A stretch of DNA of 61,889 bases from Girardia tigrina (lineage: Eukaryota): contig MQRK01207513.1 of NCBI GenBank assembly GCA_001938485.1, positions 4,162 to 66,050 on the forward strand. The letters run 5' to 3'. Of this stretch, positions 48,601 to 54,600 are shown in pieces. Each line of letters opens with the position of its first letter. Positions within the stretch are counted from its first letter, which is position 1. Position numbers: made by a program.

Positions 48601-51600
48601 ATCTATATTAATTAAAATCTCTTGGCGATCTCAGAGAGGCAACAACTTTTGGAAAATGTACCGCATGTTACTTATAGTAATTTTTAATTACTTTTACTTT
48701 ATTTATAATTATTTGAAATGTAAGATGAATAAGAGTTCTTTGAGGAAATTTTTTAATCAATAAAGTAAAAATTTTATTGTAAAGTCAAATTATTTAAAAT
48801 TTATTTATTTTAAAACTTGAAATTCTTTAATCCAAATCTTTTGAATGTTACATGTATAGGCCATTCTCCTCTGATATCTATAGCAAAGCTATTACAGTGA
48901 AGAATAAAAACCGCAGAACACTTTCTAAAAATATAATAGTTCCACCTACCTAGATAATTACTCATGGTACTCTTGGATTGAAACTTCTTTTTATTATTCA
49001 AACAATCTACCTACAGTAAGAGAAGTCTTTAACAACATTGAAGATAGAAGTATTCTAGTACTTGAAGCTACGAAAACATTAATATCAAATTCTGCTACAA
49101 TAAGTTTATACAACATCACCTTTCAATACAAGAATTAGTCATTCTTCTCAATCAAAATGGAAGTTAGTAATAATAATGGAAGCTAGAAATTATTGATACC
49201 GATTCTGTATTTTCCATTGAATATACTTGAATATACTACTTACATTGAATATACTTACAAATCTCAATTTTTAAGATGATGAATACAAAATTAAAGATTA
49301 TGTGGAAACGCGGCTTTGAAAAATGGTATTTATTCAATAAAATATATGTCGATTCCTATTCTTAGCCCCTCAATCAATGTTATTTTAATGAAATGTCAGT
49401 CTATGTCAGTGATAATTGAAAGCAGTTTTCCAAAACTTAGTTCTATATTACAGAAAGGAGGAAACTTTAATAATTAACATATTGAAAAATATGCGTGTAC
49501 TAAATATAAATGTTTTAAGTTGTACTTTTGTATTTAGTAATGTTGTATGTTTTGTATATTTTAAAAGATTCTAAAATATCCTTTGACATTGGGAGTAGGA
49601 ATAGTTATGTAATCAGTATTGTTTGTTACTAACAGAAGTAACTAAGATTAATTGCGTAATAATTATTGAGTGATTACTGATTAAATTGATTGTGTAGAGT
49701 CAGTTGTGATGATACAATAAATATGGGTTACTTGGTACGCCGACTTTACCGCGGCGACTTTACTGCGGACGACTTTACCGCGGCGACTTTACCGCGGACG
49801 ACTTTACAGCGGGCAACTTTACCGCGGAAAATTTACAACAAAATTGTCAATAAGTGAACAATGTCATCTAAAATATGAATAAAAATTTTTAATTATGTTA
49901 TGATAAAACAATGAATCATACACAGGTTTAATTTTAAAACATAAATGAATAGAAAATTTCAGATCGACATTACATTTAATTATTCTTTTTAATATAAAAA
50001 ATAAACAAACAACATACGAAAAATTAGTAAATTCCTAATTTAAAAAAATCAAAAAACATTCTAGAACAAATGAATAACACACCAAAGAAAATTGATGTGT
50101 AAATAGTAGAAAGATACAAAAACATTAAACTGTTATATTAAAGTAATGTAATAGTAAATATATACTTTAATCCAAAAAGTTTAAATTATGAGCAACGCCT
50201 CTAAGATAATCCAATATTGGTAAATTATTGTATTGCTCAACGACACATTCAATCCTCTCACTTACTTTGGCATAAATTTGCGATGAGAATCGTAGGAATT
50301 CTTCTATTCTAAATAGAATTTTAATGCGCTGCAAAATTAGTTCAACAAAATCTTGTTCAGTACGAAATTGATTTATCAAACTATAAACAGTTGGGTGATA
50401 GCAAGCGATAGAATTTTGAAACGCACGATGCCAATTTTCTATTGCATTGTTTGTGCTTGGTAGATGAGAAATAACGCCGTCATATACATTCCAACACTGA
50501 ATTGAATATCGAGGACGTAATCTTCGTTCTTCATGAGCACGGCCAATATATGTATCCTCAAAATATACAAAGACATCATCGAGTTCTGGATAATCATTGG
50601 AAAGATCAAGTAAAACAAAAAAGGCAGTGAAAACATCATCCACAGGAACAAACGCTAAGGCCATTTTTGATTTCAGAATGGTTCTTATTTCATCATTGTT
50701 TGAATAGAGATCTGGAAGATTTGATGTTTCTTTATTTTTTTCCAAATTGATTGGTTCCGATGAAAAAAACAGCCTTTAATCCAAGCGATGAGAATAGCCT
50801 GCATACACAGCAATCGGATTTCCAGATTTTGAAGTAAAGAATTGAAAATTCATGCTGAAAAAAAGTGAGAGAAAATTTTTTAGAAATTTAAAATATTTTA
50901 AGGTATATTTTTAAAGGTATTGGAGCGGAGAATTGCCAATTTTGACCGAACATTTATTTTGCCAGTTTCAGTATATAAATAAAAATATATAATTAAATAA
51001 TTAAATTAATAAATTAAAAGAATGAAATAAATTAATNNNNNNNNNNNNNNNNNNNNNNNNNNNNNNNNNNNNNNNNNNNNNNNNNNATATATATATATAT
51101 ATATAAATCAATAAGATAAAAAAAGAAAATTGATTGAAAAAATTAATTAATTACTTACCGACGAATATTATCATTATTTTCCTGACCATTATTTAATGTT
51201 GGACTAATTAATCAGTTGCTACATTTAAGGATCCTGGAATAAATTTTGGCTCATCCATTATTCTTAATCAACCCTACAGTGATTCCAATAATTTACTCCA
51301 TCCATTATTATCAATCAATCATACGGTGATACTTATAATTTACTCCATCCATTATTATTAATCAACAATACAGTGATATCCAATCACTTTTCCGAAATAT
51401 ACTCTATAACTGTCTAACAACTGATCGGTAACGAATTATCCTGTTAATTTCAATTCCCGAGATTAGGCATTTGGAGCATAAAGTAATACAGTTATTTATT
51501 TACACTAACTGCGTGATTACTACAGATTTATCTTGTCTGGTTTTTTGTTAGAGTTTAGATTATTTAATTTTATTCTATTACTCTTTAACGCTCATTACTT

Positions 51601-54600
51601 GATTCATTAATTGTGTTGTTAAAGCTACATTACGTTAAAATAACGGATTTAACAGTCAATTAAGTCGGGTAAATCTGTTATTTTACATTATGTATATAAT
51701 ATTATTTTTAAGTCATATTATTTCCATTTTCCTAATTTAACTTTAAGTATTATATCAATTTCAAAGAAATAAATTAAAAGTAAGTTTGATGATCTGTTTA
51801 TGTAATTCAAGACGATTATTTTTAGTTGTTTAATTATCTTTAATCTTTGTTGGAGCGGAGAATTGCCAATTTTGACCGAACATTTATTTTGCCAGTTTCA
51901 GTATATAAATAAAAATATATAATTAAATAATTAAATTAATAAATTAAAAGAATGAAATAAATTAATTAAATTAAATTAAATAAAAAAAATATAATTAAAT
52001 AAATTAAATAATTTAAATAAAATACAGTTAAAAAACAACACATTATCAATCGATAATGTTAATATAGTATGAATCAAATAATGTAGATAATGTGAATTAT
52101 GAATTGTGAGCCTCCTTTGTGAAATTATGTAATTGCAATAGGATCAGGTATGTATTTTATTTGGTGATTGGCTTGTAAATGAATGACTGGTAAGTGGATT
52201 TCTCTGCCACTGTGTGTGTGCGTGTTGTGTGAATGTCTGAATGGGGTGTAATTTGTGAATGATATGTTTTGATTGGTAAAATGTATGTATGTGTGTTAAA
52301 GTGTGTGTGTTAATTTTAATTGTGATTTTCAATCACAATTTTTTAAAAACGATGACAAAAATGGAAAATTATTTCTCTGCCACTGTCGGTGAATGAATTC
52401 TTGTCAATTTAAAAAAAATAAAGAAGGTTTCGTGTTTTGCTCTGTTTTTGAACAATTAAAAAATATATATAAATTGATAAACGAAATTTAAATGGATCCG
52501 ATGTCTGGCGACGTTTTAAATTCTGACATTTCCGTAATCGATGAGCCACTCGATCTGATTCGATTGAGCTTAAATGAGCGAATTTACGTTAAAATAAAAA
52601 ACGATAGAGAATTACGAGAGGAAACAGTGACGACTTTGGAGATTGATGATGAGACGCTAGAGGAAATTCATAAAGTGAAAGGCGATTATTACTGTTTTCT
52701 GTCCACCTCTCTTTCTAAAAAATCGTGGAGACACGGTTTCCTGTCCAGGTATATTAACGTAAATGGAAAATTTTATTATAAATATTACTCCGAGTATATT
52801 TTAATAAAGTATTATTTTGTAATAATGGCAAAAAAATATATAAAAATTAATAATTTTAAGAAAATTGAATTTATTTAATTATTTAATTTTATAAATTTTT
52901 AATATTTTTTCTGAAAAAAATCCGCGGTAAAGTCGTCCGCGGTAAAGTCGCCTCACCGGGTTACTTGTCTGATGTTGAATGTATGCTGAATGTATGTTGA
53001 ATGTATGTTGATAGTATGTGTGACTTTGAGATTGTAAACCAATGAAAAGGCTTTGAAAATGTGAGTCATTATAACATCACTATTTTCCCCATTAAAGAGT
53101 CGAGATTATTGATATTGTGTTATAGTTCATAAATCATATAATCTGAATTTGTCATTTTAATTTAAATGGATAACAGACATAATTATAAATTTTGATCTAA
53201 AGATTAAACATTTGATGCGTTAAAACTGAAAACAGTGACTAAAAAGTGTTTTTTAGTTATTGCATATAGATTCAAAAGTTTTCTAGATCAAAATAAGTCA
53301 AAATTTTCATTATTGAAGTCAAAAAATGTTAAATTTTTAGGTCAAAATTTAGGTTGCAAAACTGATAAGTAAAACTAATTTTTCTTATTTTTTTAAATGT
53401 AACATCTTGAGTTTAAAATGTGTTCTTCTTATTTCTAAAGTTTTATGAAAAATATTATTAAAGTAACTAATTTGTCTTCAGGCATGGATTTTACTGCGAA
53501 TGCAATCCGGGATGGACGGGAAATAGATGTCAGAGAATTTCATTAGTAGACTATAATATATATAATAATAGACCATATAATAATAGATATAATGTACCAT
53601 CAATAATTCAAAGTTTAAGATCCAAATTTGTTACCAAGAAATTGTATATAAAATCTACTGTTCCGCTGTATAATACAATTATAAATTCTACCACTCGGAT
53701 TCCAAAGATATTAAAGATATATACGGCTTTTACTAAAGTTCCTACTTATAAAAGGCCAAACTATTTCAATTCTACCACTTCAACTGTTTCCAAATTATTA
53801 AATGTTTCTAGTTCATCTAATTTCTTTTCTACGAAAAAATATTCTGAAACAAGAACGAAATCGGATCCTGTTGCGACATCAACATTACATCAAATGACAG
53901 CAAAAACATCATTTTCAACACTTTCAAAAGAATCAAATTATTCTGTTAAATATCAAGAAATAAAGGCAATATCCGGAAAAATGAAAAGTAATGAGAATGA
54001 AGAAAGTAAGTTGTATGTTAATAATTTTAATTTCTATATTCGTAAAAAGTATAGGGATTATCAGAATATAAATCACTTACGTTTCCTGATTTATATAAAA
54101 TATACATATATCTATTTATATAGTCACGTACCTCCTCTTTTCCGCCTTAATCAAACAAAATCCATTATGTGAAGACTAATAATGGTACAGTCAGACACCA
54201 GCCATGTTAGCTATTAACCCTTTGAACCCTAAAGGCCGATAAACCGGCCAGATTTGGTGAGACATATTTTAAACTTTTTTTTGAGTAAGTTTTAAATTTA
54301 AGTGAACTAAACATAGTTTTCATACTAACAATCGATATTGCATTTTTAGTCAAATATTATTTTTTGATCAAACATTACTCAGGAGCTCAGGGATATGATA
54401 CTAATACAATGAAAGTCTTAGGGTTCAAAGGGTTAGCAACAATACAAACAGATGTTATTCCTCTCGAAACTAATAGAATTGACAGGCGGCGACATCATCA
54501 ATTACTTAAAAATGCATCAAGTCAAATAACAAGTATAGAAAGAACAAAATAGAGGAATAATGGAATCTACAAATCTGTCATATTCCGGAAGCGAGTCTAT

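What the first reader, a model, noticed from the sequence alone, without database searches (positions are those of the whole stretch)
49725..52966. Animal Pack-MULE carrying a captured, internally deleted LSm3 gene
Seen: a 3.2-kb element bounded by a perfect 9-bp TSD (GGGTTACTT) and Mutator-type TIRs. It holds a MULE transposase C-terminus on the minus strand and an unmistakable LSm3 copy (52492-52711) on the plus strand. Established: 9-bp TSDs are diagnostic of Mutator; gene-capturing Pack-MULEs are abundant in plants and much less often reported in animals. Inference: the transposon captured a host spliceosome/decapping gene. LSm3 is antisense to the transposase, so transcripts from the element's own promoter could yield antisense or small RNA against the real LSm3. 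It is also sense to the host DSL-like gene and so is transcribed as intron 5.
[Added by the scan's program, not by the reader: the finding's places include an assembly gap (unread letters, written N; its length is only estimated) at 51037 to 51086. Whether the letters on both sides are continuous or in frame is not known: test that first.]
Basis: partly seen in the sequence, partly recalled or inferred. Interest (0 to 1): 0.8.

Follow-up and report, generated by a model that had tools for sequence, protein, structure and literature searches.

The report
Dead MULE transposon holding LSm3 retrocopy
A broken Mutator-type jumping gene sits here with clean insertion marks and contains a decayed copy of the host splicing gene LSm3, which looks more like a later RNA-derived pseudogene insertion than cargo the transposon captured.

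Summary
A 3,224-bp insertion (49734-52957) is flanked by a perfect 9-bp duplication. It ends in inverted copies of a 14/15-bp unit. An uninterrupted paralogue of the flanks at 20778-21059 shows the empty site, with the 9-mer region present once.

- **Transposase:** The minus-strand ORF is the C-terminal 43% of a ~460-aa FLYWCH+MULE transposase family with 3,762 relatives. The first 266 of 464 profile positions are absent and there is one frameshift. The element is a non-autonomous MULE.
- **LSm3:** The plus-strand ORF begins with a true LSm3 copy (PDB LSm3, E 1.3e-13) that lacks 16 codons. The copy has no introns. It is followed by AATAAA and an A-run, and it is bracketed by its own 23-nt direct repeat (21/23 identical; 3 of 1000 shuffles).
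- **Not tested:** Whether the MULE ever moved with this cargo could not be tested, because no genome of this organism was searchable.
- **Gap:** The N gap lies in non-coding DNA and abuts an exact 117-bp repeat. No sign of a mis-join was found.

Animal Pack-MULEs are already reported in Aedes, Drosophila and myxozoans. Interest is modest.

The parts
49725..49733 (.). Left copy of the 9-bp target site duplication GGGTTACTT
   Evidence: One of only 2 occurrences in the window. The paralogous empty site holds the target once.
49734..49830 (+). Left terminus: terminal inverted repeat plus an array of six 14/15-bp units (CGACTTTACCGCGG type). GC is 0.59, against 0.29 for the window.
   Evidence: D1; period 15, 6.0 copies, 86% matches.
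50167..50849 (-). Remnant of a FLYWCH+MULE-family transposase gene. Profile positions 267-464 of 464 are present. The breaks are one large N-terminal loss (positions 1-266 absent) and one frameshift (two reading frames are used). There is no in-frame stop inside the 192-aa ORF.
   Evidence: The profile of 49 full-length relatives gives E 2.5e-58 and E 1.5e-6 for the two frame pieces.
50920..51036 (.). Copy 1 of an exact 117-bp direct repeat. It ends at the assembly gap.
   Evidence: (D3, 100% identity).
51037..51086 (.). Assembly gap of 50 N. It was not filled. It lies in non-coding DNA and is followed by a (TA)n run.
51087..51849 (.). Unassigned AT-rich non-coding stretch. It includes a 47-bp tandem repeat of 2.8 copies at 51252-51384. 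It has no protein, Rfam or tRNA match and no other copy in the window.
51850..51966 (.). Copy 2 of the exact 117-bp direct repeat.
   Evidence: (D3).
52458..52480 (+). Upstream copy of a 23-nt direct repeat that brackets the LSm3 copy. It is a candidate target site duplication of a retroposition event. It begins with an A-run preceded by TT.
   Evidence: D10, 91% identity; 3 of 1000 shuffles and 1 of 375 real-geometry controls reach the score.
52481..52830 (+). Intronless, decayed LSm3 copy. It has 11 nt upstream of the ATG, a coding part matching LSm3 profile positions 5-36 and 53-77, and a possible further C-terminal stretch in another frame that is not significant. It then has a 3' tail with AATAAA. 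The breaks are one 16-codon internal deletion and one probable frameshift. GC of the coding part is 0.39.
52831..52853 (+). Downstream copy of the 23-nt direct repeat. It starts within the seven-A run that begins 21 nt after AATAAA.
52921..52957 (-). Right terminus: two inverted 15-bp units plus the terminal 7 nt. GC is 0.62.
   Evidence: (D14, I2, I3).
52958..52966 (.). Right copy of the 9-bp target site duplication.
20778..21059 (+). Paralogous, uninterrupted copy of the sequence into which the element inserted (the 'empty site'). It is a dispersed repeat of about 280 bp.

Best explanation
A non-autonomous member of an animal FLYWCH-type MULE family (Phantom-like) inserted into one copy of a ~280-bp dispersed repeat and duplicated 9 bp of target. 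It keeps both termini, with their arrays of a 14/15-bp unit. These arrays are presumed to be transposase binding sites, which is an inference. It has lost the N-terminal 57% of its transposase gene and carries one frameshift, so it could move only with transposase supplied by another copy.

In the 2.1 kb between the transposase remnant and the right terminus lies an LSm3 processed pseudogene. The proposed origin is that an LSm3 mRNA was reverse-transcribed into an A-rich site by the machinery of a non-LTR retrotransposon. That step would have duplicated 23 nt of target. The copy has since lost 16 codons and probably its reading frame near the 3' end, so it cannot make an Sm-fold protein.

Shown here: the insertion, its boundaries, the family of the transposase remnant, the identity and damage of the LSm3 copy, and the flanking repeat. 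Inferred: the retroposition route, and the order of events (before or after the MULE arrived here).
For: **MULE insertion**
- The TSD occurs twice in the window, and 0 of 100 shuffles reach 2.
- All 8 matches to the terminal unit lie in the element, in inverted orientation at the two ends.
- A paralogous empty site shows contiguous flanks.

**Transposase family**
- There are 3,762 relatives.
- MULE PF10551 is above its cut-off in 6 of 10 scanned relatives, and FLYWCH PF04500 in 4 of 10.
- A profile of 49 full-length relatives covers positions 267-464 only.
- All 3 named-domain hits carry PF10551.

**LSm3 identity**
- PDB LSm3 matches at E 1.3e-13.
- A profile of 68 LSm3 sequences gives E 5.5e-13 and 4.2e-6 for two colinear blocks joined without an intron.

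**Retrocopy marks**
- A 23-nt direct repeat (21/23 identical) brackets the copy exactly. It ends 11 nt before the ATG and starts again within the A-run. Only 3 of 1000 shuffles and 1 of 375 real-sequence controls reach this score.
- AATAAA lies at 52803 and a seven-A run at 52830.
- The upstream repeat begins TT|AAAAAA. This fits the target preference recalled for L1-type endonucleases.
- A non-LTR reverse transcriptase lies in the same window at 34921-35625 (RVT_1, E 3.8e-10). Such machinery therefore exists in this genome.
Against: - The A-run has only 7 A and merges with the repeat, so there is no clear poly(A) tail.
- AATAAA lies 10-35 nt upstream of 40 of 310 A-runs in this window (13%). 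That mark is therefore weak.
- The region is AT-rich and low in complexity, where short direct repeats arise more easily.
- The intron structure of the parental LSm3 gene is unknown. If the parent has no introns, absence of introns says nothing.
- The C-terminal continuation of LSm3 is not significant: profile E 3.3, and no PDB hit in two frames.
- Copy number and the parental locus could not be examined at all.
Confidence: 0.55

Rival explanations
1. Classical Pack-MULE. The LSm3 fragment was copied into the element at the DNA level, by gap filling or template switching during repair or replication. The source was an intronless parent or a cDNA. The fragment was then carried by the MULE when it transposed to this site.
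For: - The structural definition is met: MULE termini, a 9-bp TSD and a host gene fragment inside.
- The element is an internal-deletion derivative, the class in which filler DNA is usually found.
- About 20% of Muta1 derivatives in Aedes carry host gene fragments (PMC5225508 passage).
- Microhomology of 1-36 bp at capture breakpoints is reported for animal Pack-TIRs (PMC8277862 section 8).
- The internal 16-codon loss could come from patchy template switching.
Against: - Template switching leaves one copy of a microhomology at each junction. It does not leave a 23-nt direct repeat bracketing the insert.
- The copy is mRNA-shaped. It runs from 11 nt before the ATG, through the coding part without introns, to AATAAA plus an A-run.
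- No second host fragment was found in the element.
Confidence: 0.25
2. Assembly artefact. The scaffold joins two different loci, element copies or haplotypes at the N gap. In that case the LSm3 copy and the transposase remnant are not in one element.
For: - A 50-N placeholder gap lies inside the element.
- An exact 117-bp repeat ends at the gap edge (D3).
- The 763 bp after the gap match nothing else.
- The window has ten N runs.
Against: - The two contig halves carry the matching 9-bp TSD and inverted termini.
- Their outer flanks are contiguous in the paralogue at 20778-21059. Both halves therefore belong to one insertion event at one site.
- The 117 bp at the end of the left half recur in the right half, which links the two halves.
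Confidence: 0.07
3. The 128-aa ORF that starts with the LSm3 piece is a young chimeric gene or exon kept open by selection. It is not a dead pseudogene.
For: The ORF stays open for 61 codons beyond the last supported LSm3 residue, in DNA of 23% GC. Only 51 of 20,000 Markov shuffles stay open, and only 47 of 6,514 real windows of similar GC do.
Against: - There is no Pfam match.
- The exact ORF is not in the protein collection.
- The only near-length hit in the first search was a plant LSm3, 1 of 1 candidate.
- The core of the Sm fold is deleted.
- No expression data are available.
Confidence: 0.06

Closest known systems
Phantom-type animal MULEs (Mutator superfamily), including Muta1 of Aedes aegypti and its non-autonomous derivatives
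   Same: - The TSD is 9 bp. PMC6446971 gives 8-11 bp for MULEs and 8-10 bp for Phantom (passages).
- The TIRs fall within the 18-613 bp range given for Phantom.
- Relatives of the transposase carry FLYWCH plus the MULE domain.
- A short-unit repeat array lies after the transposase ORF. Aphid Phantom elements are listed with a minisatellite after the ORF.
- Muta1 derivatives with host gene fragments are reported.
   Different: - This copy lacks the FLYWCH finger and most of the DDE domain.
- Placement in the Phantom clade was not tested by phylogeny.
- The termini are short (about 37 bp) and are built of tandem 14/15-bp units.
Pack-MULEs of plants, and Ssk-FB4 of Drosophila melanogaster
   Same: It is a non-autonomous MULE with a host gene sequence between its termini and a 9-bp TSD. 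Ssk-FB4 has 9-10-bp TSDs (PMC8277862 section 9 passage).
   Different: - Ssk-FB4 carries a nearly complete gene with its introns and upstream region. It is multicopy with distinct TSDs.
- Here the cargo has no introns, is decayed, has its own flanking repeat, and is of unknown copy number.
- This element also still holds a transposase remnant.
Processed pseudogenes (LINE-mediated retrocopies) nested in transposons
   Same: It is an intronless, mRNA-shaped copy with AATAAA, an A-run and a flanking direct repeat that starts in an A-run. The human ARF6 retrogene inside MER20 is noted as possibly a retroposition rather than a capture (PMC8277862 passage).
   Different: The A tail is very short. 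The repeat is long (23 nt) for a typical TSD; the usual range is recalled, not tested here. The parent gene was not seen.

Membership tests
Mutator/MULE superfamily | Target site duplication of 8-11 bp | tested here: met
   A perfect 9-bp duplication. The empty paralogous site holds the target once. The range is taken from PMC6446971.
Mutator/MULE superfamily | Terminal inverted repeats | tested here: met
   The arms are 31 nt long and 97% complementary. The unit is found only at the two ends, in inverted orientation.
Mutator/MULE superfamily | Transposase with the MULE DDE domain (PF10551) | tested here: inconclusive
   The remnant itself gives no Pfam hit. It covers only profile positions 267-464. 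Membership rests on relatives: 6 of 10 scanned carry PF10551 above its cut-off, and 3 of 3 do.
Phantom-like FLYWCH MULEs | N-terminal FLYWCH zinc finger | tested here: not met
   It is absent from this copy. The N-terminal candidate at 50779-50853 scores profile E 4.1 and has no Pfam hit. It is present above its cut-off in 4 of 10 relatives.
Phantom-like FLYWCH MULEs | Phylogenetic placement within the Phantom clade | not tested
   No reference Phantom sequences were available from a tool. The likeness rests on domain make-up and on the table in PMC6446971.
Pack-MULE | Host gene fragment between MULE termini | tested here: met
   The LSm3 copy at 52481-52830 lies inside the element.
Pack-MULE | Cargo acquired at the DNA level (not a retroduplicate), with an identifiable parental copy | tested here: inconclusive
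   The copy has no introns and has its own 23-nt flanking repeat and an AATAAA/A-run. This speaks against DNA capture. The parental locus could not be searched.
Pack-MULE | Mobilised with its cargo (further copies with the same junctions and different TSDs) | not testable with these tools
   No eukaryotic genome collection was open. There is no other copy in the window. The exact ORFs are not in the protein collection.
Processed pseudogene | Flanking target site duplication | tested here: met
   The repeat is 21/23 identical and brackets the copy. Only 3 of 1000 shuffles and 1 of 375 real controls reach the score.
Processed pseudogene | Poly(A) tract after a polyadenylation signal | tested here: inconclusive
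   AATAAA lies at 52803 and a seven-A run starts 21 nt after it. However, 40 of 310 A-runs in the window have such a hexamer by chance.
Processed pseudogene | Lacks the introns of the parent gene | not testable with these tools
   The copy has no intron between the two profile blocks. The parent's structure is unknown.

The most novel reading that the evidence does not exclude
The LSm3 retrocopy entered a progenitor of this MULE before its last jump, and the element now exists in several copies that carry it. This would be an RNA-mediated route to Pack-MULE cargo in an animal. The unusually long open frame (128 codons, 61 of them beyond the LSm3 homology) or an inward-reading terminal promoter would then give a chimeric product, or antisense RNA against the real LSm3.
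Probability: 0.1. Interest if true: 0.55.

Novelty: new member of a known kind. Interest (0 to 1): 0.3.

Why it matters
If only the best explanation holds, this is a well-documented but ordinary nested pair of dead mobile sequences. Its value is as a clean annotation example, because the filled site and the empty site lie in one window. It is also a caution that a host gene fragment inside a transposon is not proof of capture.

It would matter more if the element proved to be multicopy with the same cargo. Animal Pack-MULEs are few: the survey of 100 reference genomes found none (PMC8277862 section 7). A retrocopy as the source of cargo would add a route that the standard pipelines discard by design.

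Tried and rejected
**Protein and structure searches that gave nothing useful**
- Pfam scanned directly on the three ORFs gave nothing usable.
- A PDB search with the transposase ORF gave one meaningless hit at E 0.72.
- The C-terminal LSm3 continuation found no PDB hit in two frames. The profile gave E 3.3. It is kept only as 'possible'.

**N-terminal FLYWCH remnant at 50779-50853**
- Two of 49 tblastn queries gave E 0.009 and 0.056.
- The 49-sequence profile gave E 4.1, and Pfam gave nothing.
- The remnant is rejected.

**Explanations for the 117-bp repeat**
- Tandem duplication: rejected, because 51087-51849 has no similarity to the sequence after copy 2.
- LTR-like nested insertion with a 5-bp duplication (GGTAT before 50921, CA+GGTAT at 52145): the 7-mer occurs twice to the right, at 52145 and 52746. 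By chance, 73 of 5000 shuffles hold at least one. By eye there is no primer-binding or polypurine tract next to the repeats. This is left open.

**Naming the organism**
- LSm3 identities are flat across eukaryotes.
- Only the phylum-level hints remain.

**Other negative results**
- Copy number: the exact ORFs are absent from the protein collection (0 of 3).
- Rfam found one sub-threshold chance hit, and ARAGORN found no tRNA.
- Host exons downstream of the element: no Cys-rich EGF-like piece was found, and there was no Pfam match in 10 ORFs.

**Literature**
- LSm3 together with Mutator-like: 0 papers in the held library.
- The rotifer MULE search gave only general listings, which were not read.

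
Full report
**1. What is there**

The stretch 49725-52966 was read directly.

- The 9-mer GGGTTACTT occurs only twice in the 61,889-bp window, at 49725-49733 and 52958-52966. 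The expected count is 0.21, and 0 of 100 shuffles reach two.
- Just inside the two 9-mers lie inverted ends built of a 14/15-bp unit. Six tandem copies lie at 49741-49827 and two inverted copies at 52922-52950.
- All 8 matches to the unit in the window belong to this element. The expected count is 0.04, and 0 of 100 shuffles reach 8.
- The insertion proper is 49734-52957, which is 3,224 bp counting the 50 N.

**2. An empty site in the same window**

- A self-comparison showed that the left flank 49647-49734 matches 20778-20864 at 90% identity. The right flank 52959-53175 matches 20856-21059 at 91-98% identity.
- At that paralogous place the two flanks are contiguous and overlap by exactly 9 bp. 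The target there is present once and agrees with the duplicated 9-mer at 7 of 9 positions.
- The element therefore inserted into one copy of a ~280-bp dispersed repeat.

**3. The gap (tested first, as asked)**

- The N run 51037-51086 is one of ten in the window. Three of them are exactly 50 N.
- The gap lies about 190 bp beyond the last transposase homology, in AT-rich DNA with stops in all three frames. No reading frame crosses it.
- The 117 bp just before the gap (50920-51036) recur exactly at 51850-51966 (D3).
- The 763 bp after the gap match nothing else in the window and no protein, Rfam family or tRNA.
- A tandem duplication is not supported.
- An LTR-like nested insertion is possible but weak. 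The flanking 5-mer preceded by CA recurs twice to the right, and 73 of 5000 shuffles show at least one such match.
- A heterozygous insertion or a real long direct repeat are equally open.
- What matters for the finding is that both halves carry matching termini and the same duplication, and that their outer flanks are contiguous in the paralogue. The two halves therefore belong to one insertion at one site.

**4. The transposase remnant**

- Pfam scanned on the 192-aa minus-strand ORF (50167-50745) gives nothing. The PDB gives nothing either.
- A full HMMER scan finds 3,762 relatives at E<=1e-3, of which 1,162 are at E<=1e-10. The best is E 1.4e-43 at 48% identity. The full-length relatives are about 455-475 aa, and the ORF aligns to their last ~180 residues.
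- Of 10 relatives scanned, 6 carry MULE PF10551 above its cut-off and 4 carry FLYWCH PF04500 above its cut-off. Two long ones are fusions with unrelated host domains.
- A profile of 49 full-length relatives (464 positions) matches the element only over positions 267-464, in two reading frames, at E 2.5e-58 and 1.5e-6. The tblastn outer bounds are 50173-50813.
- The gene therefore has one large N-terminal loss and one frameshift. There is no stop inside the long ORF.
- A suspected N-terminal FLYWCH stub was not confirmed.
Look-alike clusters are all eukaryotic, with rotifers, molluscs and arthropods the commonest phyla.
- The organism was not identified, and I did not try to trace samples.

**5. 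The LSm3 copy**

- The plus-strand ORF 52492-52878 starts with a real LSm3 sequence. Eight of 13 PDB hits at E<=1 are LSm3, the best being 3jcr_3 at E 1.3e-13.
- Two stretches match LSm3 residues 11-41 and 58-77.
- A profile of 68 of the 120 LSm3 proteins returned gives the same picture. Positions 5-36 and 53-77 are present and colinear, and positions 37-52 are missing.
- The two blocks are joined with no intervening DNA.
- A further C-terminal stretch may follow in another frame. It resembles the tail of the plant LSm3 P0001, but it is not significant.
- The missing residues lie in the core of the Sm fold as I recall it. The copy cannot make a working LSm protein.

**6. Capture or retrocopy?**

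- A 23-nt direct repeat (21/23 identical) brackets the copy. The upstream unit ends 11 nt before the ATG. The downstream unit starts within a seven-A run that begins 21 nt after the only AATAAA of the tail.
- A match that good between the two flanks arose in 3 of 1000 Markov shuffles. It arose in 1 of 375 equally spaced real pairs from the window.
- The AATAAA mark alone is weak. Forty of 310 A-runs in the window have one 10-35 nt upstream.
- The upstream unit begins with A's preceded by TT. This is the kind of site recalled for L1-type endonucleases.
- A non-LTR reverse transcriptase lies in the window.
- Together these are the marks of a processed pseudogene that landed inside the MULE. I rate this at about 0.6 against DNA-level capture.
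- The order of events is unknown. It cannot be read from the few duplicated bases available.

**7.

- The window has 29% GC and is rich in mobile elements.
- A Delta-like DSL exon lies at 44889-45137 on the plus strand. Pfam DSL gives E 9.8e-4 at 19.8 bits, below the cut-off of 24.2. The Atlas gives three DSL clusters at 0.90-0.93. This supports an animal genome.
- That exon was searched on its own.
- No recognisable exon was found downstream of the element. 'Intron 5' and co-transcription with the host gene therefore stay unverified.
- LSm3 (plus strand) and the transposase remnant (minus strand) are head to head. Antisense LSm3 RNA would need a promoter in the right terminus that reads inward, which cannot be tested here.
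- Nothing in the window was taken for human.

**8. What is known**

The papers below were seen as follows.

- **PMC6446971 (passages only):** It gives 8-11 bp duplications for MULEs. It lists the animal Phantom group with FLYWCH, SWIM or no finger, TSD 8-10 bp, TIR 18-613 bp, and a minisatellite after the ORF in aphids.
- **PMC8277862 (outline, sections 6-8 and passages):**
  - It reports 370 Pack-TIRs in 100 animal genomes and no Pack-MULE in reference genomes.
  - It names Ssk-FB4 as a Pack-MULE family in Drosophila.
  - Its pipeline discards intronless copies as retroduplicates.
- **PMC5225508 (passages):** About 20% of Muta1 derivatives in Aedes align with host genes.
- **Preprint 10.64898/2026.02.11.705288 (passages):** It reports 99 genes in pack-MULEs of a myxozoan.
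- **Library search:** No paper in the held library has both LSm3 and Mutator-like.
- **Supplements:** Supplementary tables of these papers were not seen and may list further animal cases.

**9. Verdict**

This is a MULE with a host gene piece inside, but the piece most likely arrived by retroposition. Nothing shows that it was ever mobilised.
- It is a new member of known kinds, of modest interest.
- Unchecked for lack of an open eukaryotic collection: copy number, the parental LSm3 locus, expression, and the species.

Noticed in passing
window 20778-21059, 49647-49734 and 52959-53175: A dispersed repeat of about 280 bp is present at least twice in the window at about 90% identity. One copy is split by the MULE. 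The right flank also carries an 11-bp tandem array (52972-53019) that has one unit fewer in the paralogue.
   Followed up: partly
window 50920-51036 and 51850-51966: An exact 117-bp direct repeat has its first copy ending at the N gap. The 5-mer GGTAT precedes the first copy. CA+GGTAT recurs at 52145 and 52746. An LTR-like nested insertion, a heterozygous insertion and an assembly duplication were not separated.
   Followed up: partly
window 52492-52878 (+): The ORF that starts with LSm3 stays open for 61 codons beyond the homology, in DNA of 23% GC. Only 51 of 20,000 shuffles stay open, and only 47 of 6,514 real windows of similar GC do. This could be chance or constraint.
   Followed up: partly
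window 51252-51384: A 47-bp tandem repeat of 2.8 copies, 81% matches, lies inside the unassigned stretch after the gap.
   Followed up: no
window 27197-30227 (+): Coding remnants of LTR-retrotransposon type are present: aspartyl protease, reverse transcriptase, RNase H and integrase zinc-binding domain. They are split over at least three ORFs, with N runs nearby. This is probably the virus-like stretch named by the operators. It was scanned only as it stands.
   Followed up: no
window 34918-37936 (-): A run of minus-strand ORFs with raised GC (0.44-0.46). One carries a non-LTR-type reverse transcriptase domain (RVT_1). Another, upstream of it, carries a Ulp1/C48 peptidase domain.
   Followed up: no
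window 33081-33572 (+) and 40410-41915 (+): There is a DDE_3 (Tc1/mariner-type) transposase fragment (E 2e-9). There is also a 501-aa ORF crossed by an N run, with no Pfam match.
   Followed up: no
window 44889-45137 (+): A Cys-rich exon resembles the DSL domain of Delta-like Notch ligands. Pfam is below its cut-off, and the Atlas scores 0.90-0.93. The rest of the gene was not found.
   Followed up: partly
window 53642-54172 (+): A 176-aa Ser/Thr-rich ORF lies just downstream of the element, on the same strand as the DSL exon. It has no Pfam match. It may be a host exon or chance.
   Followed up: no
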